Shown here: positions 39,891 to 63,688 of the stretch, one piece after another
Layout: each line of letters starts with the position of its first letter
Position numbering within the stretch: the first letter of the stretch is position 1
Origin: an uncultured virus (IMG/VR IMGVR_UViG_3300013621_000001)
Lineage: Duplodnaviria; Heunggongvirae; Uroviricota; Caudoviricetes
Direction: 5' to 3' (one strand)
Virus record (IMG/VR): IMGVR_UViG_3300013621_000001
Length of the DNA stretch: 64,000 nt
Notes under the pieces: generated by a model
Database searches by the model: none
What the model was told of the DNA's origin: nothing
Seen by the model: only the letters and a program-made list of their open reading frames with translations
Program-made: the position numbers and the translations under genes

Positions 39891-40196
39891 CGGGACGATG
39901 CGGCCGGCGTCCACATCGCCGCTCGGTTCGGCGCGCCGTTCCATAACTGGATCCATAACCGGATCCGCCTGCGCCACCACTTCGGCCAGGCCGCCCCGCT
40001 CCAGGCCTTCGAAGGCATTCAGCGCCTCGATCAGCTGCTGCAGGCTGGCAATCGTCGGGTTCGTGATCTGCCCGTGCGCCAGCTTCGTCAGCCACGAATA
40101 GCCGATGTCCGGGCTCTGCCGGGCGATCTCGGCGTACTTCCCTTCATGCGCACGCAGGCGCACCACGGTTTGATGCAAGAGGGTATCGGCGTCCAT
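39876..40196 (-). CDS. cro: Cro-like HTH repressor, 106 aa
   Basis: YAEIARQSPDIGYSWLTKLAHGQITNP HTH; divergent from cI. Confidence 0.75.
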   Translation of the reverse strand: MDADTLLHQTVVRLRAHEGKYAEIARQSPDIGYSWLTKLAHGQITNPTIASLQQLIEALNAFEGLERGGLAEVVAQADPVMDPVMERRAEPSGDVDAGRIVPLETA

Positions 40197-40202
40197 GACC
40201 CC

Positions 40203-40267
40203 AACCTATCATTCTAATGCTAGGCAATCAAGCATCGAAGAGCGTTCAGCCATCACTAGCATGGTAG
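40203..40267. promoter_or_regulatory. oR switch: pR (TTGATT-17-TAGGTT, minus strand) and operators
   Basis: CTATCA-N6-TGCTAG at 40206-40223 and CCATCA-N6-TGGTAG at 40250-40267. Confidence 0.65.
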
Positions 40268-40269
40268 GT

Positions 40270-40659
40270 ATGGCTAAACGTCCCTCGAGTGCAGATGTCA
40301 TCGCCGCCAACGTGCGCCGATTGATGAAGCACCTGAACCTCTCGCAGGCCGAGCTCGGCCGCAAAGCCGGGGTTGCGCAAACTCTCCTGTCGGGGCTCCT
40401 GAGCCCGGACGGCGCCTCCAAGAACCCGACATCTTCGACCGTCGACAAGCTTGCCGACGCTTTCAAAATCACCCCTTGGAAGCTGCTGGTTCAGGACATC
40501 ACGCTGGACAACCTCTTGGACGAGGAAATCGAGCGCCTAGTGGACGCTTTCGCCACCGTGCCAGCAGAGGGGCGCCGAACAATTCTGCGGGTGGCGGATG
40601 CTGAAGTCCGCTATGCCCAGGTTCCCGCGACCGTTCCGATCAAGAACACTGGGACATGA
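40270..40659 (+). CDS. cI: CI-like XRE repressor without S24 peptidase domain, ~129 aa
   Basis: LSQAELGRKAGVAQTLLSGL...NPT..TVDKLADAF; alternative start 40261. Confidence 0.8.
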   Translation: MAKRPSSADVIAANVRRLMKHLNLSQAELGRKAGVAQTLLSGLLSPDGASKNPTSSTVDKLADAFKITPWKLLVQDITLDNLLDEEIERLVDAFATVPAEGRRTILRVADAEVRYAQVPATVPIKNTGT

Positions 40660-41010: not shown

Positions 41011-41050
41011 AGCTCGATCAATCAGCTGCTTAGCATCACATCACATCAAT

Positions 41051-41099
41051 CTATCATTTTAGTGCTTGACTGACGAATGATCTATCACTATGTTGCTAG
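41051..41099 (+). promoter_or_regulatory. pL-like sigma70 promoter with two operators
   Basis: TTGACT(41066)-17bp-TATGTT(41089); CTATCA-N6-TGCTTG at 41051 and CTATCA-N6-TGCTAG at 41082. Confidence 0.75.
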
Positions 41100-41126: not shown

Positions 41127-41615
41127 ATGTCTGCACTGTCTTCGTCGCTGTACCTGGCACTGGGGGCTCTCGGGGCCACCGGCCTTGGCGCACTCTTCTC
41201 CCCATCGTCCCCTTCCACAGACGAACCCGGCCAGGCCGTCCGGGCACCAGCTGCACTGGTGATCACCAGCCCGCGCATCTGCGCGGCGCTGGAGGTCTAT
41301 ACCCTGGCCAGCGAGAACGACTGGGGCCTGCGCACCACCATTGCCCAGGCGGTGCTCAACGGCTTCAACGACACCGGCCGTGTGCCGGACTGCGCCGCCG
41401 GCGTGTCCGCCGCGCTGGCCAAGGACTTCTCTCCCTACCGCTGGCAGCTTGCGCTCGATGCCGTCGACGCAGTTGTCGCCGGCACCTACTCCGTTTCCCC
41501 TGACGCCTGCGCCCGGGCCAACACCGTCGTCCCCCTGTCGACGGAAGCCACCTCCCCCGTGGTGGCCCGGGCGCGGTGCGTCATCTATGACTTGGCCTTC
41601 GTGGAGGTGCACTGA
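41127..41615 (+). CDS. Membrane-anchored protein resembling a degenerate SleB/Hydrolase_2 cell-wall hydrolase, 162 aa
   Basis: TM followed by CAALEVYTLASE...IAQAVLN, similar to the family pattern CLA..IY.EARGE...VA.V.LNR. Confidence 0.55.
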   Translation: MSALSSSLYLALGALGATGLGALFSPSSPSTDEPGQAVRAPAALVITSPRICAALEVYTLASENDWGLRTTIAQAVLNGFNDTGRVPDCAAGVSAALAKDFSPYRWQLALDAVDAVVAGTYSVSPDACARANTVVPLSTEATSPVVARARCVIYDLAFVEVH

Positions 41616-42046
41616 TGGCCGCCACCGAACGTCGCTGCCGGGTCTGCGGCTGCACTGACCTGCAGGCTTGCCCCGGCGGTTGCTCCTGGGCCGGGGCCGA
41701 CCTTTGCAGCAGCTGCGCCGCAGCTGCAGGCCCTAGCGCCGAAAGCGCCATGGCGGTCGTCGCGCGCCAGCGCCTGCTGATCGCCGGCAAGGCCATCAAG
41801 CTGAGCCGCACCGAGGCCGTCGTGATGAAGGCCTTGGTCGCGGCTCCCGATCGCCTCGTGGAGATCGATGCGCTGCATGCGGCGATGTACCCGGACAGCA
41901 AGCCGCCGTCGCGCGAGTCCAACGTCCTTCAGGTGCTGGTCTCGCGCGTGCGCCGCAAGCTCGCTGCCGCTGGCCACAAGCACGCCATCGAGACGATCCG
42001 CCTGCGCGGCTACCGCTTCGTGATGCCCCAGGGCGGTGCTGCATGA
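41615..42046 (+). CDS. Zinc-finger plus OmpR-type winged-helix protein, 143 aa
   Basis: CRVCGCT...CPGGCSW...LCSSC and SNVLQVLVSRVRRKL...IETIRLRGYR. Confidence 0.8.
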   Translation: MAATERRCRVCGCTDLQACPGGCSWAGADLCSSCAAAAGPSAESAMAVVARQRLLIAGKAIKLSRTEAVVMKALVAAPDRLVEIDALHAAMYPDSKPPSRESNVLQVLVSRVRRKLAAAGHKHAIETIRLRGYRFVMPQGGAA

Positions 42047-42966: not shown

Positions 42967-43121
42967 GGCTCTTCCACGTCCACATCCCGGGCGTGGTGAG
43001 ACCGCACAGCGTCATCGCAGAAGCCGAGCAGGCGGCGATCGACGACGCGCTCTACACCCTGGGCCTTTCCGAGCTGCCCGAAGGCAGCAGCGTCACTTCT
43101 GAACAGACCGGAGACACCTGA
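42963..43121 (+). CDS. Hypothetical protein, 52 aa
   Basis: GTGA and TGATG coupling. Confidence 0.5.
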   Translation: MRLFHVHIPGVVRPHSVIAEAEQAAIDDALYTLGLSELPEGSSVTSEQTGDT

Positions 43122-44023
43122 TGTTCTTCCGCAACCTCACGATGTTCACCTATCCGCAGCTGCAGATGTTCGACTGGCAGGACGGCCTGCAGGCGAGCGC
43201 CCTGAAGCCGGTAGGCCCGCTGGAAATGTGCTCCGCCGGCTTCATTTCGCCATTCGGCCGCGAAGAGAAGGAGCTGCTGTCGCACGAGATCGGCCGCTGC
43301 GTGTGGATGGCCATCGGCGCCGAAGACAAGATCCTGCCGCCGGCCGTGGTCAGCAACCTGCTCGAGCTCAAGCTGCTGGAGATCGAAGAACGAGAGGGGC
43401 GCCGCCCCGGCGGCCGCGAGCGGAAGCGCATCAAGGACGATCTGCTGCACGAGCTGCTGCCGCGGGCCTTCATCCGCCCTACCCGCACGGATCTCTACCT
43501 GGACCACCAGCGCGGTGTCGTGTTCGTCGACACCAGCAGCCGCAAGACCGGCGAGAACGCCATGAGCCAGTTGCGCAACGTGGTCGGTAGCTTCCCCGCC
43601 CTGCCCTTGAATGCCGAGGTCTCGCCGCGGGCGATTCTGACCGGCTGGGTTGCCGGTGAGCCCCTGCCCGAAGGCCTCAGCCTGGGCGAGGAATGCGAAC
43701 TGCGCGACCCGGTCGAAGGCGGCGCCATCGTCCGCTGCCAGCACCACGAGCTGCGCTGCGACGAGGTCGACCTGCACCTGGAGACCGGCAAGCAGGTCAC
43801 CAAGCTCGCCCTGGTGCTGGAGGACCACCTCTCCTTCGTCCTCGGTGACGACCTGATTGTCCGAAAGCTCCGCTTCCTGGACGGCGCCGTGGAGCAGCTG
43901 CAGCACGGGGACGAAGACGGCCGGCGCGCCGAGCTCGATGCCCGCTTCGCTCTGCAGATCGCCGAGGTCGGCCGGCTGTACGACCTGGTCCGCGAGCAAT
44001 TCCGCCTCACCACCTACGCATGA
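43121..44023 (+). CDS. rdgC: Recombination-associated protein RdgC, 300 aa
   Basis: MFFRNL, EDKILP..VV, LLPRAF, HL..GKQVTKLAL and LSFVL.DDL..RKLRF motifs. Confidence 0.92.
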   Translation: MFFRNLTMFTYPQLQMFDWQDGLQASALKPVGPLEMCSAGFISPFGREEKELLSHEIGRCVWMAIGAEDKILPPAVVSNLLELKLLEIEEREGRRPGGRERKRIKDDLLHELLPRAFIRPTRTDLYLDHQRGVVFVDTSSRKTGENAMSQLRNVVGSFPALPLNAEVSPRAILTGWVAGEPLPEGLSLGEECELRDPVEGGAIVRCQHHELRCDEVDLHLETGKQVTKLALVLEDHLSFVLGDDLIVRKLRFLDGAVEQLQHGDEDGRRAELDARFALQIAEVGRLYDLVREQFRLTTYA

Positions 44024-44030
44024 GGTCCCT

Positions 44031-44276
44031 ATGCACCTGCATCTTCTGAGCAATGGCCGCTTGTCCCTCGACGTCCTGCTGACCGCCCTGCTGGCCCAGC
44101 CGAAGCGTGCTACCCGTCCCGTCCCTGTACGTCGCATGCCGGCACGCCACCGCACCACCTGGGCACCAGCTGGCGGCGGCCGGGCCGAGTGTGCTCGCCG
44201 CCTGCGCCAGATCGAAGCCGGCACCTTGACCATTGCCGGCGGCCTGGTCGCGACCTACAAGGGCGATCACCCGTGA
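44031..44276 (+). CDS. Hypothetical protein, 81 aa
   Basis: GAGG RBS; ECARRLRQI..G.L motif. Confidence 0.6.
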   Translation: MHLHLLSNGRLSLDVLLTALLAQPKRATRPVPVRRMPARHRTTWAPAGGGRAECARRLRQIEAGTLTIAGGLVATYKGDHP

Positions 44277-44989
44277 GCCGCGTGCGCGCTTTTATCTGCG
44301 CCCTGTTCGGCTGCGCGCGAGACTGGCCGGATATGGAGTCGTGCGGCCGCTGCGGCAGCTACATGGATCTGCAGGCGGCGCCGCGCACCATTGGCCGCCG
44401 CGTGCTCGATCGCGTTGCCACCGCACTGATTCAGCGCGGCGCACGCACCCCCTACTTTCACCTGGTCAACGCCGATGGCACGCCGTACATTGACCGCTTC
44501 TGGCTGCTGCGCATCGGCCGCGCCGGCGTCGACGACCGTGGCCAGCTCCGGCCCTGGTTGGCCCTGCGCCTACACCACATCCGCAGCAGCGACCACGGCG
44601 GCATCTTCCATGATCACCCCTGGTCATTCTTCAGTCTGATCCTGCGGGGCGGGTACTTCGAGCACCGGCCCTTCGACGGGCCGCTGCCGGCGGTACCGGA
44701 CGCGGTGCCGTCGGCGATCGCCGAGGAACCGTATTCGTCGACCTGGTACGGCGCTGGCCAGCTGCTGTTCCGCCGTGCTGAGGGCTGGCATCGGATCGCC
44801 CTTGCCGAGGATCTGCAGGCTGAAGGCACTTGGACGCTTGTGCTGACGCTGCCGCCGCGCGCCCACAGCTGGGGCTTCCGCATCCGCGGTCAGAAGGTCG
44901 AGCACCGCGCGTACTTCCGGAAGGAAGCTGTCCGGCAGCGCGCGCGGCAGCAGATCCATGTCCCGAACAGCTCGGATTGGACCCCGTGA
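44273..44989 (+). CDS. Cupin-like protein with N-terminal Cys motif, 238 aa
   Basis: LHHI..SD....HDHPW.F.SLIL.GGY.E and HRI motifs. Confidence 0.65.
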   Translation: MSRVRAFICALFGCARDWPDMESCGRCGSYMDLQAAPRTIGRRVLDRVATALIQRGARTPYFHLVNADGTPYIDRFWLLRIGRAGVDDRGQLRPWLALRLHHIRSSDHGGIFHDHPWSFFSLILRGGYFEHRPFDGPLPAVPDAVPSAIAEEPYSSTWYGAGQLLFRRAEGWHRIALAEDLQAEGTWTLVLTLPPRAHSWGFRIRGQKVEHRAYFRKEAVRQRARQQIHVPNSSDWTP

Positions 44990-44992
44990 GCC

Positions 44993-45715
44993 ATGGTGCG
45001 CAAGTCACACCCCAACGCGCGCCGGCCATGGACCGCCGACGAGGACGAGACGCTGCGACTCAACTGGCCGCGGTTCCCCGCCTTCCTGATCGCGCACGTC
45101 CTCGAACGGCCCACGGCCGCGGTGTACCGGCGAGCAGCGGCTCTGGGCCTGCAGAAGGCCGACGACTTCCACACCCAGCCGCTGGCCGCGCTCTGGAACG
45201 GGACACAGGAGCCGGGCTCGATTGCCTCGCGCTTCAAACCCGGCACCACACCGCCGAACAAGGGACTGCGCAGGCCGGGCTGGCACGCCGGCCGAATGCG
45301 GGAAACCCAGTTCAAGAAGGGGCGGCCGGCCCGCGAGGCGCGCAACTACGTGCCGATCGGGACCGAGAAGGTCGATCCGAAACGGAAGGTGCTGATGCGC
45401 AAGGTCACAGACGACCCAGCCCTGTTCCCGGTCAATCGTTGGCGACCGGTGCACGTGATGGTCTGGGAGGCGGCAAACGGCCCGGTACCGGAGGGAAACA
45501 TCGTGGTGTTCCGGCCGGGCCTGAAGTCGCTGGTCGCCGCAGAGATCACTGCTGATCGCCTCGAGACCGTGACCCTCGCCGAGAACATGCGGCGCAACAG
45601 CTACCACAACCGGTTCCCTCCGGAACTGAAAGAACTGGTCCACCTGAAGGCGCGAATCACCCGCCGGGTCAGGCGGCGAATCAAGGAGCAAGAAGATGAA
45701 GAACAAGGTCAGTGA
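44993..45715 (+). CDS. HNH-like endonuclease family protein, 240 aa
   Basis: RF.PG..P.NKG, H..VWE..NGPVP and LE.VT.AENMRRN motifs. Confidence 0.75.
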   Translation: MVRKSHPNARRPWTADEDETLRLNWPRFPAFLIAHVLERPTAAVYRRAAALGLQKADDFHTQPLAALWNGTQEPGSIASRFKPGTTPPNKGLRRPGWHAGRMRETQFKKGRPAREARNYVPIGTEKVDPKRKVLMRKVTDDPALFPVNRWRPVHVMVWEAANGPVPEGNIVVFRPGLKSLVAAEITADRLETVTLAENMRRNSYHNRFPPELKELVHLKARITRRVRRRIKEQEDEEQGQ

Positions 45716-45953
45716 TGTCCGCGACCACCTGGTGGCCATGCTCGAACGCCTGGGCGACGACGATCTGAACGCCGAGCAGATGGGCCAGGTCATCGAGCGC
45801 GCCAAGGCCACCACCATCGTGGCCACCACCTACATCGGCGCGGTGAAGGTGGAGCTCGACGCGATCCGGTTGGCGCACGAAACCGGGAACCTGACGGCCG
45901 CAGTTGCCGAGCCGCAGCAGATCCCCTCGCTGCCTGTCGGCCAGAGGCGCTGA
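45696..45953 (+). CDS. Hypothetical protein, 85 aa
   Basis: MKNK..D.RDHL...LE.L motif; AAGGAG RBS. Confidence 0.7.
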   Translation: MKNKVSDVRDHLVAMLERLGDDDLNAEQMGQVIERAKATTIVATTYIGAVKVELDAIRLAHETGNLTAAVAEPQQIPSLPVGQRR

Positions 45954-45955
45954 CC

Positions 45956-46183
45956 ATGGCAAAGAAACTCCTGTCCTTGCACGTCAAGGGCAAGCACAAA
46001 TCCTGGAGCTTCGAGTTCATGGGCGACCCCAAGCACATCCCCGACTGGGAGGCGGATGGCCTGGAGGTGTGGGAGGTCTGCAACGTCGTCCCCGCATGGA
46101 TTGCTGACCTCGGCCTTACTCGACCCTGGGTCTTTCTCCAGGACGTCTTCAACTTCAAGAACCCTTGGGGTCGCAATGGCTGA
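45956..46183 (+). CDS. Hypothetical protein, 75 aa
   Basis: Operon packing; GAGG RBS. Confidence 0.6.
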   Translation: MAKKLLSLHVKGKHKSWSFEFMGDPKHIPDWEADGLEVWEVCNVVPAWIADLGLTRPWVFLQDVFNFKNPWGRNG

Positions 46184-46415
46184 CCGCAAACGCAACTTCG
46201 CGCTCGAGCAGCGCCTGCGCTTCATCGACTTCCTGCTGGACCACTACGGCCGGCTCAACCGCGGCGCCCTCGTGGACTACTTCGGCATCAGCGTGCCGCA
46301 GGCAAGCATTGACATCCGAACCTACCAGGAGCACGCAGGCGCCGAGCAGATGCGGTACGACCTTTCTGAGAGGTGCTACCTGGCTGAGAAGGGGTTCAAA
46401 CGATGCTGGCCATGA
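46176..46415 (+). CDS. Stand-alone winged HTH resembling the N-terminal DNA-binding domain of CapW/BrxR WYL regulators, 79 aa
   Basis: EQRLRFIDFLLDHYGRLNRGALVDYFGISVPQASIDIRTY...MRYDLSERCY; overlaps both neighbours. Confidence 0.72.
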   Translation: MADRKRNFALEQRLRFIDFLLDHYGRLNRGALVDYFGISVPQASIDIRTYQEHAGAEQMRYDLSERCYLAEKGFKRCWP

Positions 46416-46624
46416 CCTCGAACCATCTGCGAACGGTACCCCTGACCAAGAAGTCCCAGGTATCGGACGTGCTACACGCCGGCGGCCGCATCGTCGCTGG
46501 CCACCGGCCTGGCCTGCTGCAGTTGCTCGACGCCGAGGGCCGCCCAGTCCCTGCCTGGCAAACCGCCCTGAAGGCCGCTCAGCTCTCGGCCGCACCCTCC
46601 GGAGATCCGCATGAACCGCAGTGA
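46412..46624 (+). CDS. Hypothetical protein, 70 aa
   Basis: ATGA overlap. Confidence 0.55.
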   Translation: MTSNHLRTVPLTKKSQVSDVLHAGGRIVAGHRPGLLQLLDAEGRPVPAWQTALKAAQLSAAPSGDPHEPQ

Positions 46625-47351
46625 CGTCCTCCCCCGTTTCCTCGCCGATACGGCCACCCACGAGCTACGGATCGTAGTCGACGACGGCGTGCACCGCCAC
46701 CTGCAGCTCCGGCGCCCAGGCACCTACTGCTACGGTTTCGACATCGTGACCTGGCCCGGGCACCTGGCGATCTCCGGCGACATGGGCACTGCCGTTTTCA
46801 GCCGCCTGCACGACATGTTCGAGTTCTTCCGTGCCAAGCCCGCCGAGCACGAAAAGGCCGGCGGCCTGTTCGTGAACGATGGCTACTGGGCAGAGAAGTG
46901 CGTGGCCAACGACGGCGAGAAGAAGGAATTCAGCGCGGCACTCTTCCGCGCGCTGGTGACCCGCCTGTTCAAAGAGCACGTTGAGGAACGTGTGGACCCC
47001 GACGATCTGGCGGATCCGGACACGTCGACGCCGGAGTGGGTGGCCAGGTTGTGGCAGGAGCTCGAGGTCGAAGTGCTGAACGACTCGGAGGATCACGACG
47101 CCCTGTGCAACGCGATCAAGGCGATGTCGGACTTCGCGCCGAGCGACCCCGACTACAGCGACTTTCGCATCACTGACGCCTGGGAATACGCATCCTCGCT
47201 GCAGCAGTACACCTTCCACTTCCTCTGGCGCCTGTACGCGATCGCCCGCGCGATCCGTGCCTACGACGATGCCGCCGACACTGCCGAGCCGACAGGACTG
47301 CCAGGCGACATTGCTGCGCCGGCGCCGCTGGCGGAGGTTGCCCATGCGTGA
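46611..47351 (+). CDS. Conserved phage hypothetical protein, 246 aa
   Basis: DDG..RHL...FDIVTWPG.L.ISGDMG...DMFEFFR...YWAEK. Confidence 0.75.
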   Translation: MNRSDVLPRFLADTATHELRIVVDDGVHRHLQLRRPGTYCYGFDIVTWPGHLAISGDMGTAVFSRLHDMFEFFRAKPAEHEKAGGLFVNDGYWAEKCVANDGEKKEFSAALFRALVTRLFKEHVEERVDPDDLADPDTSTPEWVARLWQELEVEVLNDSEDHDALCNAIKAMSDFAPSDPDYSDFRITDAWEYASSLQQYTFHFLWRLYAIARAIRAYDDAADTAEPTGLPGDIAAPAPLAEVAHA

Positions 47352-48003
47352 GCGGCCGATTCTGTTCAACGGCGCCATGGTGCGCGCCATTCTGGCTGGC
47401 GAGAAGACGCAGACGCGACGCCTGTGCAAGGACATGAACGCATGGGTAGACCAGAGCTGCCGCGAAGTGCGGCACGTGAATGGCGTGCCCCATCACTTCC
47501 TGATCGGCGCGCAAGCGCCCATCGAGCAGCTGCGTTGTCCCTTCGGCCAGCCAGGCGACCGGCTGTGGGTCCGCGAGACGACAGTGAACGTGGAAAAGCA
47601 TGGGTACCGCGGCCCCGTCCATCTGGAGTCCGAAGAAGGCTACGCCACGCTGCAGGGCGGGCTGGCGCCCGCGCCAGACGACATGACCGAAGTTGAGCCA
47701 CATGAAATCACGCTGCGGCCTTCCATCCACATGCTGCGCTCCATGTGCCGGCTGTTCCTTGAAATCACCGACGTGCGCGTGGAGCGGCTGCAGGCGATCA
47801 GCGAGGCCGATGCGGTCGCCGAGGGTGCCACCGCAGACGTGCTGCCAGAGATCCGACTGCGCCACGGCCACCCACGCGCCGCCAAGCCGATGGTCTACGA
47901 AGACAGCCGGGAGATCTTCGCCGACCTATGGGACAGCACCGGCGGCGACTGGAACGCCAACCCGTGGGTGTGGGCCATCACCTTCAAGAGGATCGAAGCA
48001 TGA
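47344..48003 (+). CDS. Conserved phage protein (ASCH-like fold), 219 aa
   Basis: ERPILFNGAMVRAIL.G.KTQTRR, GDRLWVRE, PSIHM and NPWVW motifs. Confidence 0.8.
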   Translation: MRERPILFNGAMVRAILAGEKTQTRRLCKDMNAWVDQSCREVRHVNGVPHHFLIGAQAPIEQLRCPFGQPGDRLWVRETTVNVEKHGYRGPVHLESEEGYATLQGGLAPAPDDMTEVEPHEITLRPSIHMLRSMCRLFLEITDVRVERLQAISEADAVAEGATADVLPEIRLRHGHPRAAKPMVYEDSREIFADLWDSTGGDWNANPWVWAITFKRIEA

Positions 48004-48566
48004 ACGACATCAACAAGGCATGTTCCTGCCCCAACGGTGACGGCTCGCTGCGCCATCCGTGTCCCGTCCATCCGAGCCTGACGGACAACCCGCAAAGTGG
48101 GAGGGTGAGGCTGGGGGATCAGGCCGAGCGGGCGTCGTTTGAGGCGTGGGCCAAGCATCGTGTCTCCTCAATGGCACGCGCCACAGATGGGGAATACGCA
48201 AGCAACTTCACGCACGCCCTGTGGTCCGCGTGGCGATCCTCACTCGCCGCCCACCAGCCGGTGGATGGGTTGTCATGGGCTGACTACTGGATCGAGCGCG
48301 GACAGCCCGACGTAGCCCACGACTTCGATGCCTTTTCTCGCGCTGAGGCCTGGGCGCTCCAGCGCTTCCCCGGCACCCGCCAGCCGGTGGCGCAGCTCAC
48401 CGACGCCGAGATCGACGCGCGCCTCAACACCCTGTACCGCGAGTTGGTGGCCAGCGGCCAGCACAACGGCGGCATGTCGGGTGTTGCGTGGGACCGGGCT
48501 GTCTATCGCATGGCGTCAACGATGCCCCTCCCCGAGCCGCCGAAGGAGGCCGACGATGGACGTTGA
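48000..48566 (+). CDS. Mosaic Ea/ead-like hypothetical protein, 188 aa
   Basis: CSCP.GDGSLR.PCP.HP and ERA.FEAW modules. Confidence 0.65.
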   Translation: MNDINKACSCPNGDGSLRHPCPVHPSLTDNPQSGRVRLGDQAERASFEAWAKHRVSSMARATDGEYASNFTHALWSAWRSSLAAHQPVDGLSWADYWIERGQPDVAHDFDAFSRAEAWALQRFPGTRQPVAQLTDAEIDARLNTLYRELVASGQHNGGMSGVAWDRAVYRMASTMPLPEPPKEADDGR

Positions 48567-48897
48567 ACGAAGGGCGCAGGAGCTGGTCAAGGCAGAGCTT
48601 CCGAATCTGACCGATGAGAATTTCGGCTACCAAGGGACAACGGTAGTCAATTTGCACGTGGTCATGCGGCTCCTGCACTGCGCCCTCACGCCGCCCGAGG
48701 GCTACGCGGTGGTGCCGGTGGAGGTGCAGAAGGACGCAGATCGCTTCCGCTTCCTGGCCAGTTGGGCTGGTGCTGAATTCAATTCGGAGAGGGGCTACCT
48801 GAGGTGGTATCTGTCGCGTAAGGGGCGTGGCTTCGCGAGCTTGGCCGAGACAGTTGATCAATGTCTGCCATCCACTCCCCCGGAGGTGAAGCCGTGA
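48556..48897 (+). CDS. Hypothetical protein, 113 aa
   Basis: AAGGAGG RBS; PEGY.VVPVE module. Confidence 0.65.
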   Translation: MDVERRAQELVKAELPNLTDENFGYQGTTVVNLHVVMRLLHCALTPPEGYAVVPVEVQKDADRFRFLASWAGAEFNSERGYLRWYLSRKGRGFASLAETVDQCLPSTPPEVKP

Positions 48898-49097
48898 GTG
48901 CCAACACGATCGCGGGAAGGAATTGGACAAGTTTCAACCCGCTAAATCAGATGGTTGGAGCCGGCGATGGAACTACGGTTCCGGTTGAGTTGACTGACCA
49001 CGTCGCCTGTTTGGCAGATGTCTTGCGCATCTCAACGATCCGAACCGATCAGAGGCGCGAGGACGTGCCGCACCTCGGACGTCATCGACATGGCTGA
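48894..49097 (+). CDS. Hypothetical protein, 67 aa
   Basis: GGAGGT RBS; GTGA overlap. Confidence 0.45.
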   Translation: MSANTIAGRNWTSFNPLNQMVGAGDGTTVPVELTDHVACLADVLRISTIRTDQRREDVPHLGRHRHG

Positions 49098-49266
49098 CCC
49101 GATCAAGGTGACCGTCACCAATCCCGACACGGGTGAGGTCCTGCAGGAGCGCATCCTCGTAAATGACTATGCAGTGATTTGCGCCGGCGATCGATACGTC
49201 AAGAGCGTTCAGATCATGGGATCCACCCACATGATCGCCGTAGCGAAGGAGAAGACAAATGGCTGA
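49090..49266 (+). CDS. Hypothetical protein, 58 aa
   Basis: Overlap-coupled on both sides. Confidence 0.55.
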   Translation: MADPIKVTVTNPDTGEVLQERILVNDYAVICAGDRYVKSVQIMGSTHMIAVAKEKTNG

Positions 49267-49819
49267 CCCCACAGCGCGCTGTCACGCCACCGACCACAAC
49301 ATCCACCCAGATCTGGCCAGGGAGCTTCGTGCGATCGCCACGGTCCCGATGGATCTCCGTCGGCCGGCGCTGCGGCGCTTGGCCGAGAAGATCGGCAACG
49401 CCGCAATGGTCGATCTGTTCGGCGAGTTCATTGGCCTGGCCAACCAGGTCGCCTACAACGCCTGTGAGCAGGCCAAGGACCTGCTGGTGCTGCAGGGCCA
49501 CGTGTGGCCGCACGAGGCCGAGCGCGTCAACATGCCCTGCATCCTGGGCGCCCTCAACGGCATTGTGCTGGCCGCCGGCATCGACCCTGGTCCGCTCTGC
49601 GGGGGCTGTGCATTCCGGGCCGGTACCGTGGCCAACCAGTGCCTCCCGACCACGGAAGACGCCGACTACTGCTCCACCCCGGGCGAGCGTCCCTTCCTTT
49701 GCCACGAAGCCGTCGACGAGCACGGCAACGCCATCAGCGCCTGCCGCGGCTTCGCCCAGCGGCGCGCCGCTTTGAACGCTGCCGAGCGCAACACCGAACA
49801 CCAGGAGCCCGCCGAATGA
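49259..49819 (+). CDS. Cys-rich hypothetical protein, 186 aa
   Basis: CGGCAFR...FLCHE...CRGF putative metal site; AAGGAG RBS. Confidence 0.65.
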   Translation: MADPTARCHATDHNIHPDLARELRAIATVPMDLRRPALRRLAEKIGNAAMVDLFGEFIGLANQVAYNACEQAKDLLVLQGHVWPHEAERVNMPCILGALNGIVLAAGIDPGPLCGGCAFRAGTVANQCLPTTEDADYCSTPGERPFLCHEAVDEHGNAISACRGFAQRRAALNAAERNTEHQEPAE

Positions 49820-50085
49820 ACAATTCTGACCGCCTTCCCGTGCGCTACCACTTGCACCTGGACGTCGCCGCCGCACTGATCAACATGACCGACAAGGAGT
49901 TGGACGGGCTCTTCGAGTGCGTTCCGGCCGGGGAGCCGCTGACCGCGACTGAAGCTCGCCAGGTGCTGGCGGTGCACCTGGCCAACGGCCGCCACGTCAT
50001 TCCGCTCGCTGCGTGCGAAGGCTTCGACTACGGTGGCACCGGTTGCCCTGGCCATCTGGAAGCACCAGAGGTGGCCCATGGCTGA
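49816..50085 (+). CDS. Hypothetical protein, 89 aa
   Basis: C.GFDY...GCPGH motif; ATGA overlap. Confidence 0.65.
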   Translation: MNNSDRLPVRYHLHLDVAAALINMTDKELDGLFECVPAGEPLTATEARQVLAVHLANGRHVIPLAACEGFDYGGTGCPGHLEAPEVAHG

Positions 50086-50308
50086 TGCAGGCATTGCCGA
50101 CGGCACTGCCACCCGGATCCTGCAGCTGCTGCAGGAGGGGCCGGGCCTTGCCGGCGAGCTGGCCGCCGAGCTGCAGCTACCGTCGAACCGGGTCAGCAGC
50201 TACCTGCACCAGCTGGCCAAGACCGGCCGAGTCCAGCGCGCGCCCTTCCACGGTCCGGACGAACGCCCGTCGGTCCTCTGGAGCCTGCAGGCGGTGCCCC
50301 ATGAGTAG
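50078..50308 (+). CDS. Winged-HTH protein, 76 aa
   Basis: RILQLL..GP....ELA..L......VS.YL.QL...G.V. Confidence 0.65.
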   Translation: MADAGIADGTATRILQLLQEGPGLAGELAAELQLPSNRVSSYLHQLAKTGRVQRAPFHGPDERPSVLWSLQAVPHE

Positions 50309-50579
50309 TTTCGGACCCTCGTCACGAGGATTGTCGAGGACCGGATCCCCCGCGAACCTGCGGCCGGTCCGATTCGTAACGCTCAAGCAGTTCGAGGTGC
50401 TGACCGGCTACACCGTCGACGCCATCAACTCGAAGATCAAGCGTGGCGATTGGCTGGAGGGCGCCGTGTTCATCAAGGCGCCGGATGGAAGAAACCTGAT
50501 CGACCTGGAGGGGTACGAAGAGTGGGTAATGCACGGCAAGGCGGCGTCAGGCCAGCTACACAGAGCAGCATCGCAATAG
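50301..50579 (+). CDS. xis: Excisionase
   Basis: F..LTGYT.DAI.SKI.RG.W.EG....KAPDGR..ID..GY..WV; overlaps int. Confidence 0.85.
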   Translation: MSSFGPSSRGLSRTGSPANLRPVRFVTLKQFEVLTGYTVDAINSKIKRGDWLEGAVFIKAPDGRNLIDLEGYEEWVMHGKAASGQLHRAASQ

Positions 50580-51685
50580 ACTTCTACTATCGGGGCAAGC
50601 GTTGCCGTGAGCGGATCAAGCTCGCCCCGACCGCTCGAAACCTGCGCTACTGCGAGAATCTGTTGGGGCAGATCAAGGTCGAGATCGAGAAAGGCACCTT
50701 CGACTATGCCACCCACTTCCCCGGCAGCAAGCGCGCGGTGCAGGTGGCAGAGAAGCCAGCGGCCCTCGACACCCTGGAGCAGGTGCTGACACGGTGGCTG
50801 GCACAGAAGGAGCCTGAGCTCGAGCATAGCAGCCTGATTGGCTACCGGCGCATCGTCGAGAACATCCTGGTGCCGCGCTGCGGAGCGATCGCGTTGCGTG
50901 ACTTCGACCGTATCGCCCTGAAGGAGCTGGTGGCCACATTCGACGAGTCGACGTCGGCCAAGCGCATCAACAACGTTCTGGGCCCGCTCCGCGGCGCCCT
51001 CGATGAGGCCGTAGCCGACGACTTGATCCCCAGCAATCCCCTCGACGGGTTCCGGGTGAAGCGGCGCGCCAAGGCCAACGCGCGCGAGGAGGTCGACCCC
51101 TTCACGCCGGAGGAAGTCCAGGCGATCCTGGCCGCCTGTCGCGAGGACCAGGTCCGCAATTATTGCCAGTTCAACTTCGCCACGGGCCTGCGCACCTCGG
51201 AAATGATCGGTCTCTGCTGGTCGGACATCGACTGGCGCAAGGGCACGGTCAAGATCCGGCGCGCCTGGGTCATGGGCAAGATGAAGGCCCCCAAGACCGA
51301 GTCCGGCGTGCGCGAAGTGCAGCTGCTGCAGCCGGCGATCGACGCCCTGAAGGCCCAGCGTGCCCATACGGCGACGGCCGGCGAGTTCGTCTTCCACGAT
51401 CCCAGGACGAACGCCCGGTGGGGGTCGGATCAGAGCATCCGCGCCGGTGAGTGGCAGCGCGCGCTGCGCAAGGCTGGCGTCCGGTACCGATACCCGTATC
51501 AAATGCGCCACACCTTCGCCTCCCAGGCGCTCAGCGCGGGCGAGAACGTCATGTGGGTGGCGAGGCAGATGGGGCATCGCGACTGGACGATCACCGCCAA
51601 GAAGTACGGCCGGTGGATCCCCTCAATGGTCCCTGACGCCGGCGCCAAGGCCGCTGCAGTGTGGATGCCGAAGTCTGCCGTCTAG
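50522..51685 (+). CDS. int: Tyrosine integrase of the prophage (DUF3596-like arm-binding domain), 387 aa
   Basis: SIAIDFYYRG.RCRE; TGLR.SE; YQMRHT; MGH...Y catalytic residues; GTG start inferred. Confidence 0.93.
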   Translation: MGNARQGGVRPATQSSIAIDFYYRGKRCRERIKLAPTARNLRYCENLLGQIKVEIEKGTFDYATHFPGSKRAVQVAEKPAALDTLEQVLTRWLAQKEPELEHSSLIGYRRIVENILVPRCGAIALRDFDRIALKELVATFDESTSAKRINNVLGPLRGALDEAVADDLIPSNPLDGFRVKRRAKANAREEVDPFTPEEVQAILAACREDQVRNYCQFNFATGLRTSEMIGLCWSDIDWRKGTVKIRRAWVMGKMKAPKTESGVREVQLLQPAIDALKAQRAHTATAGEFVFHDPRTNARWGSDQSIRAGEWQRALRKAGVRYRYPYQMRHTFASQALSAGENVMWVARQMGHRDWTITAKKYGRWIPSMVPDAGAKAAAVWMPKSAV

Positions 51686-52406: not shown

Positions 52407-52760
52407 GGGGGTGCATTGGTTTCGACGGGGGTTGTGAAGTCGCCTGGCGCATGCCGAGGGGGTAGCTTTCCTCGTAAATCCAGCTGCAAAACTCTAGTTG
52501 CCAACGACGACAACTACGCTCTGGCCGCTTAAGGCCTAAGCCTCGAAACCGCTTGTGTCCATGCTCGCGGTGTAGAGTCACTATCATGGAATCGCGCTGG
52601 GTGGCTGCCTGTCAGTCCGGCACTAGAACACAACAGGCTGGTTCCCGGATGCGCTTTGCACGCCGTGCTGTTCGGGGACGAGATCCAACGGTGAGCTAAG
52701 CATGTAGTGCTGGGGATGGAGTGCCTTCGGACGGCGGTTCAATTCCGCCCACCTCCACCA
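52407..52760 (+). ncRNA. ssrA: tmRNA (tag ANDDNYALAA, 52500-52532)
   Basis: 5' GGGGGTGCATTGGTTTCGAC; 3' T-arm GGCGGTTCAATTCCGCC and ACCTCCACCA; G3:U alanyl determinant; tag ORF ending ALAA*. Confidence 0.97.
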
Positions 52761-52782
52761 TACAACCGTCCAAGACGGTGCG

Positions 52783-52828
52783 AAAAAGGCCGGAAACCCT
52801 AGAGAAATCAACGGTTCCGGCCTTTTTT
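52783..52828 (+). terminator. Island-supplied intrinsic terminator for ssrA
   Basis: AAAAAGGCCGGAA...TTCCGGCCTTTTTT. Confidence 0.8.
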
Positions 52829-52874
52829 GTGTGCTATGGCGTCCGGTAATGGCCACTGGAATCCGGTGGAAAGT

Positions 52875-52937
52875 AGCGGTAACTTTGGCGGTAAGTCAGC
52901 TGCCGCCAAAACAGTTACCGCCATGCCGGTTACCGTC
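52875..52937. promoter_or_regulatory. Left arm-type integrase sites
   Basis: (G/A)GCGGTAA(C/G) at 52875 and 52887; inverted copies at 52914 and 52929 straddle the int ATG. Confidence 0.65.
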
Positions 52938-54158
52938 ACGCCCCTCTCCGATACCGCCATCCGCAAGGCTAAGCCGGGCCCCGGGCCAATCAAGCTACGG
53001 GATGGCGGCGGCCTGTATCTGCTACTGAAGCCCGACGGCGCGCGCTGGTGGCGCTGGGACTACCGGCGGCCGGTCACGGGCAAACGTAACACCCTGAGCT
53101 TGGGCACCTACCCAGACGTGAGTCTGGCCACCGCCCGCCAGCGGCAAGCCGAGGCACGCAAGCTGCTGGCGTCCGGCATTGACCCTGGCGAGGCACGCAA
53201 GGCGAACAAGGCTGCCGGTATCGAGCGCGCGGCAAACAGCTTCGAAGTGGTCGCCCGCGAGTGGCTGGGCAAGCGAGATTGGGTTCCGGGCTATCTGGAT
53301 AAGGTGGCCGCATGGCTGGCCAATGATGTATTCCCCTACATCGGCGGCCGACCGGTGGCCGAGCTGACCGCGCCGGAGTTCCTGCGGGTGGCACGACGGA
53401 TCGAGGAGCGTGGGGCGATTGAGTCGGCCCACCGCATCCTGCAGAACTGCGGCCAAGTGATGCGCTATGCCATCGCCACCGGCCGAGCCGAGCGCAACCC
53501 CGTCACCGACCTGCGCGGTGCCCTCGCCTCGCCCACCGAGCGCCATCATGCTGCCATTACCGAGCCGACCGCCTTGGGTGGCCTCCTGCGGGCCATCGAC
53601 GGATACAACGGCGATCCAACCACGCGCGCCGCCTTGAAGCTGGCACCGCTGGTGTTTGTGCGCCCTGGCGAGCTACGTCATGCCGAATGGTCCGAGATCG
53701 ACCTGGGCAAGGCCGAATGGAACATCCCGGCCGAGAAGATGAAGATGCGCCAGCCTCACCTGGTGCCGCTATGCGATCAAGCGGTGGCGATCCTGGGCGA
53801 ACTGCATGCATTGACCGGCCGAGGCCAGTACGTATTCCCCGGTGGCCGCTCCCCTCGCCGCCCAATGAGCAACAACGCCTTGACGGCCGCGCTGCGCCGC
53901 ATGGGCTATGACGGCGACACCATGACCGCCCACGGCTTCCGCGCCAGCGCGCGCACACTACTGGATGAGGGCCTGGGTTTTCGGCCTGACTACATTGAGC
54001 ACCAATTGGCTCACGCCGTGCGCGACCCCAATGGCCGCGCTTACAACCGTACAGCCCACCTTCCTGAGCGTCGAAAGATGATGCAGGCATGGGCAGACTA
54101 TCTTGATGCCCTGCGAGACAATACCAATGTGCTGCCTTTCAAGGCGCGCGCAGGCTGA
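52923..54158 (+). CDS. int: P4-family tyrosine integrase, 411 aa
   Basis: DGGGLYL...W..DYR...LG.YP.VSL arm domain; RPGELR, HGFR, LAH...AY. Confidence 0.94.
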   Translation: MPVTVTPLSDTAIRKAKPGPGPIKLRDGGGLYLLLKPDGARWWRWDYRRPVTGKRNTLSLGTYPDVSLATARQRQAEARKLLASGIDPGEARKANKAAGIERAANSFEVVAREWLGKRDWVPGYLDKVAAWLANDVFPYIGGRPVAELTAPEFLRVARRIEERGAIESAHRILQNCGQVMRYAIATGRAERNPVTDLRGALASPTERHHAAITEPTALGGLLRAIDGYNGDPTTRAALKLAPLVFVRPGELRHAEWSEIDLGKAEWNIPAEKMKMRQPHLVPLCDQAVAILGELHALTGRGQYVFPGGRSPRRPMSNNALTAALRRMGYDGDTMTAHGFRASARTLLDEGLGFRPDYIEHQLAHAVRDPNGRAYNRTAHLPERRKMMQAWADYLDALRDNTNVLPFKARAG

Positions 54159-54194
54159 AATATCACCACCAGGCACCACCGGGGAAAGAACACG

Positions 54195-59108: not shown

Positions 59109-59151
59109 AACGCTTCCGGATATGCCGTGCACACGTTGATCCGTTCATCCC

Positions 59152-59183
59152 AAGACAAGGGCCTCGCGCCCTTGGTCTTTTTC
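59152..59183 (+). terminator. Intrinsic terminator after the R-M gene
   Basis: AAGAC-AAGGGC...GCCCTT-GGTCTTTTT. Confidence 0.55.
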
Positions 59184-59194
59184 AAGGGCTTTAA

Positions 59195-59734
59195 GTGATT
59201 CGCTACAAACCTCCTTCCAGAAGAAAAATTGCCCAACAACTCGCGCGTGCGGGTGCGGACGTTAACCAGCAGATCGGGGGATCGCTATGGATTTCCTCGA
59301 ACCTGCAGGGGGTTGGCATCGCCAAGCTGGGCGCTGATGATTTGGGGCATCTGCGCGAAGCAAGGAACATGCTAGACAAAGCGCTGGGCGAGCTAGCAGC
59401 CATGGGTGCACCCTTTGCTTCCAAGCTTCCACATAACTTCCCTATGAACCTGCAGGAATCCGAGCAGCCACTAGGCTGGTTGAATCCGGACGTTATTGAA
59501 CCCATCGCACGTGCCGCTTGGCATTTGGATTTTTGCATCGACACTTACCGCCCTGGAAAGAGCAGCGCTCATCATCAATTCTGGAAGGAGCTAAATCGTT
59601 ACTTTGAGGTTGAAGGAATAAAAGCCACCTTCAGCTCATCCAGCCCTATTGTGATGATATTTGCCGAATGTACTGGGCTGACCCCAGAATCGGCCTACCA
59701 CGCAGCCAAGAAATTTCGCAAGGTACAAAAATAG
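59195..59734 (+). CDS. Hypothetical low-GC protein upstream of alpA, 179 aa
   Basis: GTG start; only long ORF in the interval. Confidence 0.6.
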   Translation: MIRYKPPSRRKIAQQLARAGADVNQQIGGSLWISSNLQGVGIAKLGADDLGHLREARNMLDKALGELAAMGAPFASKLPHNFPMNLQESEQPLGWLNPDVIEPIARAAWHLDFCIDTYRPGKSSAHHQFWKELNRYFEVEGIKATFSSSSPIVMIFAECTGLTPESAYHAAKKFRKVQK

Positions 59735-59816
59735 AGATTTCCTGGCGATCTTACCCCCTGACTGGGGCACGTCAAAAAATCACCATTGTCTGCGTTGAAC
59801 CACATGGAACGCAGCT

Positions 59817-60020
59817 ATGCCCCGCAAGACGTTACTGCGCCTCCCCGGCGTTGAAGACAAGATGGGCCTTCGTAAGTCCCAGATTTATGCACTCATCAAA
59901 GCAGGTGCCTTTCCGCCACCCGTGAAGCTGTCCGAGCGTTGCAGCGCATGGGTGGAATCCGAGCTGGACGAATGGATCGAAAGCCGCATTGCGGCTTCGC
60001 GGAAGGAGGCTTCTGCATGA
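59817..60020 (+). CDS. alpA: AlpA-family regulator / recombination directionality factor, 67 aa
   Basis: LLRLP.V....GL.KS.IY.....G.FP.PVKL......W.ESE...WI. Confidence 0.92.
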   Translation: MPRKTLLRLPGVEDKMGLRKSQIYALIKAGAFPPPVKLSERCSAWVESELDEWIESRIAASRKEASA

Positions 60021-60394
60021 TCCAGAAACGACGAGGCCCCGGCGGGAACCGGGGCCATGCACACGCTGGCAGGCTGGGTGCACGGCAAGTTTACGGTAAG
60101 AATGGCCTGAACAGCGCGCGCCTGCCTGAGAACTGGCGGGACCGGCTGCCCGACCCCAGAAGCTACTATCACAAGCGTGTTGCCAAATTGGGCAAGGCGC
60201 AAGGCGATGGCTGGGCGCAGGGACAATGCCCTTTCCACGAAGACCGTAATGCCTCACTGAGTGTAAATCTGAGGCATGGCGGCTGGACATGCTTTGCCGG
60301 CTGCGATTCGGGCGACTTGGTGAGCTTCCATATGCGCTATACCGGTCTTTCGTTCAAGGCTGCAGCGCGCGAGCTGCTGGGGCTGCGGTCATGA
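60017..60394 (+). CDS. CHC2 zinc-finger protein (primase zinc-binding domain), 125 aa
   Basis: CPFHEDRNASL...W.CFAGC..GD. Confidence 0.85.
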   Translation: MIQKRRGPGGNRGHAHAGRLGARQVYGKNGLNSARLPENWRDRLPDPRSYYHKRVAKLGKAQGDGWAQGQCPFHEDRNASLSVNLRHGGWTCFAGCDSGDLVSFHMRYTGLSFKAAARELLGLRS

Positions 60395-63639: not shown

Positions 63640-63688
63640 ACGGACTTATTTCGCGCAGTTGCTACGTTTCAGGCCATAGTTTGATAGA

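What the first reader, a model, noticed from the sequence alone, without database searches (positions are those of the whole stretch)
46176..46415. Phage early gene encoding only the DNA-binding domain of a CapW/BrxR-type defence regulator: candidate sensor-less repressor of host immunity
Seen: a 79-aa ORF, overlap-coupled to both neighbours in the early-left operon, so it looks like a deliberate gene rather than a broken one. It reads RLRFIDF...G.LNR..L..YFGISVPQAS.DI..Y.......YD...RCY. Known: from memory this matches the N-terminal winged HTH of WYL regulators. CapW controls CBASS and BrxR controls BREX and related islands; they regulate defence operons through a nucleic-acid-sensing WYL domain. 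Inference: an HTH without WYL/WCX could occupy those operators, ignore the infection signal and keep defence operons off. It could also have been recruited for phage gene control. Caveat: the missing domains normally mediate dimerisation.
Basis: partly seen in the sequence, partly recalled or inferred. Interest (0 to 1): 0.75.

Follow-up and report, generated by a model that had tools for sequence, protein, structure and literature searches.

The report
Phage copy of CapW's DNA-binding domain
A temperate phage carries a small gene that encodes only the DNA-binding part of a bacterial repressor of anti-phage immunity, without its alarm sensor, and it may keep host defences switched off when the prophage wakes up.

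Summary
ORF 46176-46415 (+) encodes 79 aa and overlaps both neighbours. By sequence (E 1e-13 to CapW chains) and by fold (TM 0.79-0.93 to CapW/BrxR) it is the winged HTH of CapW-type WYL regulators. All four published DNA-contact residues are kept. No WYL/WCX sequence follows it.

It is not a broken gene. 56 of 58 related loci stop at the same place. 64 of the 150 best representative clusters are this short form. Short forms make one branch (SH-aLRT 99). They carry their own residues (L20, Y24, A31, Y35) at a predicted self-dimer interface (score 0.65, best control 0.02).

It lies in the early-left operon of a lambda-like prophage, as an optional two-gene cassette found in 3 of 21 related proviruses. 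Its nearest full-length relatives sit beside CBASS-like operons (7 of 8). Published work shows that CapW mutants that cannot be induced weaken CBASS defence against prophage induction.

The sensor-less repressor reading is therefore the best supported, at about 0.45, but no operator or target was shown. It is a new variant of a known kind.

The parts
46176..46415 (+). 79-aa stand-alone CapW-type winged-HTH gene (P0001)
   Evidence: ORF and translation. PDB phmmer E 1.2e-13 to CapW. Foldseek TM 0.79-0.93 to CapW/BrxR. GC3 0.838, and dN/dS 0.15 and 0.38 against L005 and L006.
45956..46183 (+). 75-aa ORF of unknown function, the upstream half of the same optional cassette
   Evidence: Overlaps the wHTH start. 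No Pfam, PHROGs or Atlas hit. Present only where the wHTH is present in related proviruses. Absent from other short-family loci.
45935..46477 (+). Approximate extent of the variable cassette (75-aa ORF, wHTH, and start of the next ORF)
   Evidence: A contig of a related prophage replaces 45935-46477 by 183 other letters (X17 record 20). 18 of 21 related proviruses lack both genes between the same flanks.
46403..46624 (+). 73-aa downstream ORF that overlaps the wHTH stop by 13 nt. Cassette-less relatives have a longer N-terminus here.
41030..41094 (+). Two sigma-70-like promoter matches ahead of the early-left operon that holds the gene
   Evidence: No promoter-like site was found between 41094 and the gene on the + strand.
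40195..40659 (+). CI-like repressor (HTH_3) of the prophage
   Evidence: PHROGs and Pfam.
50033..50308 (+). Separate 91-aa winged HTH (IclR/ArsR-like) directly upstream of the integrase; likely excisionase
   Evidence: Pfam. It makes an excisionase role for the CapW-type gene unnecessary.
50450..51685 (+). Tyrosine integrase at the end of the early-left operon
   Evidence: PHROGs phrog_1. Pfam Phage_integrase and Arm-DNA-bind_2.

Best explanation
The gene encodes a sensor-less, self-dimerising copy of the DNA-binding domain of CapW-type immune repressors. It is made from the prophage's early-left operon when the phage is induced or infects. In the proposed mechanism, DNA damage or phage replication produces single-stranded DNA. 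Host CapW binds that DNA through its WYL domain, its two wHTH domains move apart, and it leaves the promoter of its defence operon. The phage protein has the same recognition residues but no WYL/WCX. It would sit on the freed palindromic operator as a constitutive dimer and hold the defence operon (CBASS-type, possibly others) at its basal level while the phage replicates.

Shown: fold, homology, kept DNA-contact residues, loss of the sensor, a conserved short form in viruses, and accessory status.

Inferred: dimer formation, operator sharing and repression.
For: 1. CapW-type wHTH by sequence and fold. Sm CapW residues R32, S42, Q45 and S47, whose mutation was designed to disrupt DNA binding (PMC9122588, passages read), align to R29, S39, Q42 and S44. 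The motif S-V-P-Q-A-S is the CapW form of the base-contacting stretch described for BrxR (PMC9122589, passages).

2. The sensor is absent by design. 56 of 58 loci end right after F-x-R-x-W/Y. No WYL/WCX remnant was found: 24 C-terminal queries gave a best E of 0.047 elsewhere in the window, while 24 of 24 N-terminal controls hit the gene. dN/dS is 0.15 and 0.38.

3. It is a large, separate family. 55 near-length homologues were found. A profile search gave 2131 hits, and 64 of the best 150 end at the wHTH. 49 of 50 viral loci are the short form. Atlas clusters of 77-82 aa are mostly viral.

4. Short forms are one side of a branch (SH-aLRT 99, 55 short and 25 full-length rows). Their discriminating residues are L20 (55/55, against R in 22/25), Y24 (55/55, against E/D in 17/25), A31 and Y35. 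These lie in the predicted homodimer interface (residues 19, 22-24, 31, 34-35). The score is 0.65 with best control 0.02. The mark was reached by 20 of 30 solved homomers and 1 of 23 single chains. Contacts agree in at least 87% and pLDDT is at least 86.

5. It is an accessory gene, not a core gene. It is present in 3 of 21 related proviruses at a variable slot. No neighbour is shared by more than 8 of 57 loci.

6. Of 8 full-length relatives examined in the host family, 7 are head-to-head with CBASS-like genes.

7. PMC11662680 (passages) reports that non-inducible CapW WYL mutants strongly compromise CBASS protection against lambda prophage induction. It also reports that ssDNA binding separates the wHTH domains by about 13 A.
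Against: No binding site was shown. The published Sm CapW operator sequence was not in the texts I could read. I could not derive a core shared by all 25 upstream regions. [CG]TAT..ATA[GC] palindromes occur in only 7 of 25.

The window's host genome is not held, so I do not know whether this host has a CapW.

Of 7 genomes with a short copy, only 2 have a full-length relative found with this query, one of them weak.

Identity to full-length wHTH domains in the 401 genomes searched of the family used as host stand-in is only 31-49%, so this is not a recent capture of a host regulator. A V. cholerae study reports no crosstalk between parallel WYL repressors (10.1101/2025.11.13.688357, abstract). 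That argues operators can be private.

The homodimer pass may come from the model's memory of solved CapW/BrxR dimers.

Expression was not shown. RNA-library contigs cover the gene in a related prophage but cannot prove transcription.
Confidence: 0.45

Rival explanations
1. It is an accessory DNA-binding regulator with targets unrelated to CapW/BrxR operators. It would tune phage genes, or host genes other than defence, using a wHTH scaffold that happens to derive from the CapW lineage.
For: Small HTH proteins are common in phage early operons. The short family is an old, separate branch only 31-49% identical to the full-length forms found in the 401 genomes searched, so its specificity may have drifted. 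Short-family recognition motifs vary: 29 of 166 rows carry ..ATRD in place of ..QAS.D. Short copies occur in genomes where no full-length relative was found with this query (5 of 7).
Against: It is absent from 18 of 21 closely related proviruses, so it is not a core phage regulator. It has no promoter or intergenic space of its own. No neighbour gene is conserved. No CTAT..ATAG or GTAT..ATAC palindrome lies in the window, though chance expects only about 0.5, so this is weak. The base-contacting motif is the same as in CBASS-linked CapW proteins.
Confidence: 0.33
2. It is an Aca-like autoregulator: the HTH partner of an adjacent small anti-defence gene (here the 75-aa ORF). It would shut off the cassette's own promoter.
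For: The two genes travel as one cassette in this prophage lineage. A small unknown gene followed by a small HTH gene is the usual acr-aca layout (recalled knowledge, and the abstract of PMC13551039 in the listing).
Against: There is no intergenic region or promoter-like site before the 75-aa ORF. Its ATG lies 2 nt after the previous stop. The 75-aa ORF is not found beside the wHTH in any other short-family locus searched (L001-L059). No upstream partner is conserved. The Aca survey PMC13551039 has no occurrence of WYL, winged, CapW or BrxR.
Confidence: 0.08
3. It acts on protein rather than DNA. It would pair with the wHTH domain of a host WYL regulator or dock on its WYL/linker surface, and so disturb the host repressor.
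For: In CapW each WYL domain packs mainly against the wHTH of the other protomer (PMC9122588, passages). A free wHTH could in principle compete for that surface.
Against: The positions that differ between short and full-length forms (R20 to L, E/D24 to Y, D31 to A) are those predicted to form the self-interface. That favours homodimers. Removing a repressor would raise defence expression, which would not help a phage. This was not tested directly.
Confidence: 0.06
4. It is the prophage's excisionase or recombination directionality factor.
For: Excisionases are small winged-helix proteins (recalled). Integrases lie within 0.3-2 kb downstream in L006, L044 and L045.
Against: It is missing from 18 of 21 related proviruses that keep the same integration module. 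Another wHTH ORF (50033-50308) sits directly before the integrase. Family members also occur beside DNA polymerase, primase and terminase genes, and in phage Sonora.
Confidence: 0.03

Closest known systems
CapW (CBASS-associated wHTH-WYL-WCX repressor; PDB 7TB5, 7TB6, 9C5G)
   Same: The winged-HTH fold is the same, with 40-43% identity over the domain. The DNA-contact residues are kept and the S-V/A-P-Q-A-S recognition motif is shared.
   Different: It has no linker, WYL or WCX domains. It is encoded in a prophage operon, not beside a defence operon. Its residues at positions 15, 20, 23, 24, 31, 35 and 76 are distinct.
BrxR (BREX-associated WYL regulator; PDB 7T8K, 7QFZ)
   Same: Same domain family (PF26109, WHD_BrxR) and same fold (TM 0.79-0.85).
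   Different: It is more distant (27-31% identity, phmmer E 1e-3 and 0.31). The base-contacting SRQQ motif of Acinetobacter BrxR (PMC9122589) is replaced by SVPQ.
Phage and plasmid homologues of AmrZ that repress CRISPR-Cas in Pseudomonas (10.1101/673095)
   Same: A mobile element carries a homologue of a host repressor of immunity with DNA-contact residues conserved. Three phage homologues lowered Csy complex levels (passages read).
   Different: AmrZ is a ribbon-helix-helix global regulator and the mobile copies are whole proteins. Here a dedicated, signal-responsive defence repressor has been cut down to its DNA-binding domain, which would remove inducibility.
[quoted passage not shown]
   Same: They bind the operator, do not respond to ssDNA, and weaken CBASS protection against prophage induction. 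This is the phenotype proposed for the phage protein.
   Different: They are laboratory point mutants of the full-length host protein, not a natural phage gene.

Membership tests
CapW/BrxR wHTH-WYL-WCX regulators | N-terminal winged HTH of the WHD_BrxR (PF26109) type | tested here: met
   phmmer E 1.2e-13 to 7tb5. Foldseek TM 0.79-0.93. Homologues carry precomputed PF26109. Atlas cluster 100% PF26109.
CapW/BrxR wHTH-WYL-WCX regulators | DNA-contact residues of the recognition helix (Sm CapW R32, S42, Q45, S47) | tested here: met
   They align to R29, S39, Q42 and S44. The residues are named in PMC9122588. They are nearly invariant in the short family.
CapW/BrxR wHTH-WYL-WCX regulators | Central WYL ligand-binding domain | tested here: not met
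   The ORF ends at residue 79. No WYL hit. No remnant in any frame. The full-length relative L064 does score WYL, E 4e-14.
CapW/BrxR wHTH-WYL-WCX regulators | C-terminal WCX dimerisation domain | tested here: not met
   Same as for WYL.
CapW/BrxR wHTH-WYL-WCX regulators | Encoded next to, and divergent from, the defence operon it controls | tested here: not met
   The gene lies inside a prophage operon among overlapping small genes. No PADLOC hit for 9 tested ORFs of that operon. 7 of 8 full-length relatives do show that layout.
CapW/BrxR wHTH-WYL-WCX regulators | Binds a roughly 20-bp palindrome at the defence promoter | not testable with these tools
   Needs EMSA or ChIP. No verified operator sequence was available.
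Mobile-element homologues of host immune repressors (AmrZ type) | Encoded on a phage or plasmid and homologous to a host repressor of a defence system, with DNA-contact residues kept | tested here: met
   Prophage context. 49 of 50 viral loci are the short form. Residues kept.
Mobile-element homologues of host immune repressors (AmrZ type) | Lowers expression or activity of the host defence system | not testable with these tools
   Reporter and plaque or induction assays are needed.
Aca-type anti-defence-associated regulators | HTH gene at the end of a short operon with its own promoter and an inverted repeat upstream | tested here: not met
   No intergenic space or promoter-like site before the cassette. 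The upstream partner is not conserved.
Excisionases / recombination directionality factors | Present with the integrase in all related prophages | tested here: not met
   Present in 3 of 21 related proviruses. Another wHTH ORF lies directly before the integrase.

The most novel reading that the evidence does not exclude
A single ancient loss of the WYL/WCX sensor from a CapW-like repressor gave rise to a virus-borne family of about 75-aa immune silencers. The wHTH-wHTH contact would have been rebuilt from a polar, separable one (R20, E24, D31) into a hydrophobic, permanent one (L20, Y24, A31, Y35). The dimer would then be locked in the DNA-binding geometry that ssDNA normally breaks. Phages would use it to block damage- or infection-induced upregulation of CBASS and other WYL-controlled defences. 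Variants of the recognition helix within the family (QAS.D and ATRD types) would track different classes of host regulators.
Probability: 0.35. Interest if true: 0.8.

Novelty: new variant of a known kind. Interest (0 to 1): 0.66.

Why it matters
Known phage counter-defences mostly act on defence proteins or their signals. Blocking the inducible expression of defence operons by mimicking their own repressor would be a different layer.

Its only close precedent that I know of is the set of phage AmrZ homologues that repress CRISPR-Cas. [quoted passage not shown]

It would also speak to an open question in the CapW/BrxR literature: when does inducibility of these systems matter? The published answer so far is prophage induction and repeated attack, and this gene sits in a temperate phage's induction-time operon.

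The idea is directly testable with the published CapW reporter and prophage-induction assays.

Tried and rejected
1. Frameshifted or decayed full-length gene: rejected. The stop position is conserved in 56 of 58 loci, no WYL/WCX remnant exists, and the gene is under purifying selection.

2. Operator search. The Sm CapW probe sequence is not in the main text or the held supplement of PMC9122588. k-mer and palindrome analysis of 25 upstream regions gave no core shared by all. [CG]TAT..ATA[GC] palindromes occur in 7 of 25, against a shuffled mean of 2.0 and 0 of 500 shuffles reaching 7. That is a lead only, because related loci are not independent. The window has none of these palindromes, but chance expects about 0.5.

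3. The search for homologous proteins with 'longer' found nothing. This is weak, and other searches superseded it.

4. Megablast of 43000-50000 against phage records: no match.

5. Own-genome search: the assembly is not held. Earlier findings of this scan: none.

6. Two repeat-finder runs failed on a size limit and were not pursued.

7. RNA evidence. RNA-library contigs at 90-95% identity cover parts of the operon, and X15 record 5 spans the gene. Contigs cannot show transcription, and parts without cover mean nothing.

8. Co-occurrence with a host CapW was 2 of 7 genomes, too few to use either way.

9. The 75-aa cassette partner got no annotation from Pfam, PHROGs or the Atlas.

10. Literature. 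Searches on CapW/WYL/phage-encoded, on BrxR/CapW/anti-defence/super-repressor, on 'lacking the WYL' phrases, and on repressor homologue/counter-defence terms found no paper describing stand-alone phage wHTH copies of CapW/BrxR. Term look-ups in six papers found none either. Subscription-only papers are not covered.

Full report
**The feature.** ORF 46176-46415 (+) encodes 79 aa. Its start overlaps the stop of ORF 45956-46183 (ATGGCTGA). The next ORF starts at 46403, 13 nt before its stop. GC3 is 0.838, like its neighbours.

**Setting.**
- PHROGs, Pfam and ARAGORN show a lambda-like prophage.
- The - strand from 1 to about 40100 carries virion, lysis and replication genes: major head, portal, terminase, endolysin, O-like and P-like replication proteins, and a CII-like protein.
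- The + strand carries a CI-like repressor (40195-40659) and promoter-like sites at 41030-41094.
- After these comes a long run of overlapping genes: RdgC 43121, HNH 44993, several unknowns and the wHTH.
- That run ends with a second wHTH at 50033 and the integrase at 50450-51685.
- The window's own assembly is not held.
- The nearest record, G001, is an IMG/VR provirus of 62,561 bp rated complete. It encodes the identical protein.

**What the protein is.**
- phmmer against PDB chains gives CapW from three species at E 1e-13 to 1e-10 and BrxR at 1e-3.
- The AlphaFold2 model built on 56 homologues has pLDDT 93.3, with three helices and a two-strand wing.
- Its only Foldseek matches at E <= 1e-3 are CapW and BrxR chains, with TM by query 0.79-0.93.
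- The Sm CapW residues chosen for DNA-binding mutants (R32, S42, Q45, S47; PMC9122588, passages) align to R29, S39, Q42 and S44.
- In Acinetobacter BrxR the base-specific contacts come from S37-R38-Q39-Q40 (PMC9122589, passages).
- The phage protein has S-V-P-Q at that place, as do the CapW of 7tb5 and several CapW-like proteins of the host family.
- The local Pfam, PHROGs and PADLOC scans were blank.
- That Pfam copy also found no winged-HTH family on the one full-length relative scanned, L064.
- Homologues carry a precomputed PF26109 label, which the Atlas names WHD_BrxR.

**It is a short form by design.**
- A near-length search found 55 proteins of 72-104 aa, all labelled PF26109.
- Pattern scans found 50 viral and 8 genomic loci.
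- In 56 of these 58 loci the reading frame stops right after the motif F-x-R-x-W/Y.
- The exceptions are L052 (a divergent 165-aa ORF) and L060 (a 304-aa full-length form).
- These scans used motifs of the short family, so they favour it.
- An unbiased profile search of 1.84 billion representatives gave 2131 hits at E <= 1e-3.
- Of the best 150, 64 end at the wHTH and 29 have 150 or more residues after it. The other 57 have tails of 5-149 aa, mostly with full-length signatures, so they are probably fragments.
- C-terminal parts of 24 full-length relatives find nothing in the window (best E 0.047 elsewhere; 0.29 or worse near the gene). All 24 N-terminal parts hit the gene.
- dN/dS against two relatives is 0.15 and 0.38.

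**One origin and a rebuilt surface.**
- I extracted 25 full-length relatives. 23 come from 401 genomes of the family of L055 (Luteimonas), used as a stand-in for the host's family, where 25 genomes had a match. The other two are L060 and L064.
- One row, L087, comes from the unpublished genome G201.
- In a tree of 55 short and 25 full-length domains, the short forms are one side of a branch (SH-aLRT 99, length 0.68).
- A larger tree without the recognition-helix columns needs two changes and is poorly resolved.
- DNA-contact positions are shared. The short forms differ at R15 (55/55, against A/E in 21/25) and L20 (55/55, against R in 22/25).
- They also differ at H/Q23 (against W/F/Y), Y24 (55/55, against E/D in 17/25) and A31 (51/55, against D in 19/25).
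- The last two differences are Y35 (53/55, against R/F/A) and R76 (49/55, against P in 24/25).
- The same split holds among the 150 representatives.
- A two-copy complex prediction gave 0.65 with best control 0.02.
- The mark was reached by 20 of 30 solved homomers and 1 of 23 single chains. Runs agree in at least 87% of contacts and pLDDT is at least 86.
- The interface residues are 19, 22-24, 31 and 34-35, with Y24 against Y24 across the axis.
- Four of the seven interface positions are thus family-specific.
- Solved CapW and BrxR dimers exist, so the pass may reflect likeness rather than binding.
- The inference is that the family replaced WYL/WCX-mediated dimerisation with a direct hydrophobic wHTH-wHTH contact.

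**An optional cassette.**
- A search with the downstream 246-aa protein found 36 viral loci.
- 21 of them keep both flanking genes. Only 3 of the 21 carry the 75-aa ORF plus the wHTH. These 3 lie on the same contigs as L003-L005.
- Some of the other 18 are near-duplicates.
- In most of the 18 the slot is 99-127 bp.
- Three hold other cargo, one of them a PAPS-reductase gene.
- A contig of a related prophage replaces 45935-46477 by 183 other letters.
- The 75-aa ORF is not found beside the wHTH in other family loci.
- No neighbour is shared by more than 8 of 57 loci.
- Same-strand neighbours in 32 sampled loci were annotated. I sent 148 of the 431 ORFs of at least 95 aa.
- They include integrases, Erf/RecT/exonuclease, primases, polymerases, methyltransferases, DGR reverse transcriptases, HNH nucleases and some terminases.
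- Cultured phages rarely carry the gene. 2 of 50,697 records match: Sonora with a 75-aa hypothetical protein, and Arash with a full-length WYL protein.
- On plasmids, 261 records match. The 25 listed all lie under full-length WYL or regulator genes.

**What the relatives do.**
- I examined 8 full-length relatives in genomes of that family.
- 7 of the 8 lie head-to-head with CBASS-like genes.
- Those genes are E1-E2/JAB fusions in L132-L135 and L137, and cyclase plus E2 plus effector in L136 and L138.
- The gene's nearest kin are therefore CapW regulators of CBASS.

**Mechanism.**
- CapW represses its operon by binding a palindrome at the -10 region (PMC9122588).
- ssDNA bound by the WYL domain moves the wHTH domains about 13 A apart and releases the DNA (PMC11662680).
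- WYL mutants that cannot respond strongly compromise CBASS protection against lambda prophage induction (PMC11662680).
- A constitutive wHTH dimer made from an induction-time operon would have the same effect as those mutants.
- This is the best-supported reading, and I put it at about 0.45.
- Every functional step is inferred: dimerisation, operator sharing, timing and repression.

**Against it.**
- I have no verified operator.
- The host genome is unknown.
- Only 2 of 7 genomes with a short copy have a full-length relative found with this query.
- One study reports no crosstalk between WYL repressors (abstract).
- The main rival, an accessory regulator with other targets, stays at about a third.
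- Aca-like, protein-poisoning and excisionase readings are weaker, for the reasons given under the rival explanations.

**Novelty.**
- Databases label such proteins automatically as CapW/BrxR wHTH domain proteins.
- Four library searches and term look-ups in six papers found no description of stand-alone phage copies or of this counter-defence idea.
- The closest precedent is the set of phage AmrZ homologues that repress CRISPR-Cas (10.1101/673095, passages).
- I rate it a new variant of a known kind, with interest 0.66.

Noticed in passing
window 52407-64000: A tmRNA gene (52407-52760) is followed by a second integrase (52827-54158). Then come a 1637-aa Type IIG restriction-methyltransferase (54195-59108, PADLOC PDLC03597, E 0) and a DUF3987 primase/helicase-like gene (60289-62484). 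GC dips to 0.55 at 58-60 kb. This looks like a separate defence-carrying island integrated at ssrA, next to the prophage.
   Followed up: partly
window 1-6279 (-): A giant ORF of more than 2092 aa runs off the window start. It has PHROGs hits to DarB-like antirestriction, endolysin/lytic domains, helicase and virion RNA polymerase families. It may be an injected multi-domain virion protein with an anti-restriction role.
   Followed up: no
L104:1937-2296, L113:1560-2305, L115:1352-2329: The slot that holds the wHTH cassette carries other cargo in related proviruses. L115 has a 384-aa PAPS-reductase-domain protein (PF01507). L104 and L113 have unannotated ORFs. This is a hotspot for accessory genes in the early operon.
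   Followed up: partly
window 41615-42046 (+): A 143-aa early-operon protein has an OmpR-type Trans_reg_C winged-helix domain (E 1e-13) and no receiver domain. It is a second example in this operon of a stand-alone DNA-binding domain from a bacterial regulator family.
   Followed up: no
L033-L035, L038 (4232-4241); L037 (1765-1774); L039 (4232-4239): In one group of related viral loci a palindrome (CTATAAATAG; in L039 the shorter CTATATAG) lies 13 nt after the stop of the short wHTH gene. It resembles the CTAT..ATAG palindromes seen upstream of some full-length capW genes. It could be chance or a promoter element.
   Followed up: no
G003: L063 and L064/L135: One Frateuria MAG holds both a prophage-type short wHTH (79 aa) and a full-length CapW beside an E1-E2/JAB operon. 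Their recognition helices are nearly the same (STPQASLD and SIPQASLD). It is a natural pair in which to test the hypothesis.
   Followed up: partly
window 32168-32244 (-): A tRNA-Met gene lies inside the prophage, between the lysis and replication modules.
   Followed up: no
OQ632216.1 78856-78975: Salmonella phage Arash (181 kb) carries a gene annotated as a WYL domain-containing protein, with 50% identity to residues 13-52 of the query. A phage can therefore also carry what appears to be the full-length regulator.
   Followed up: no
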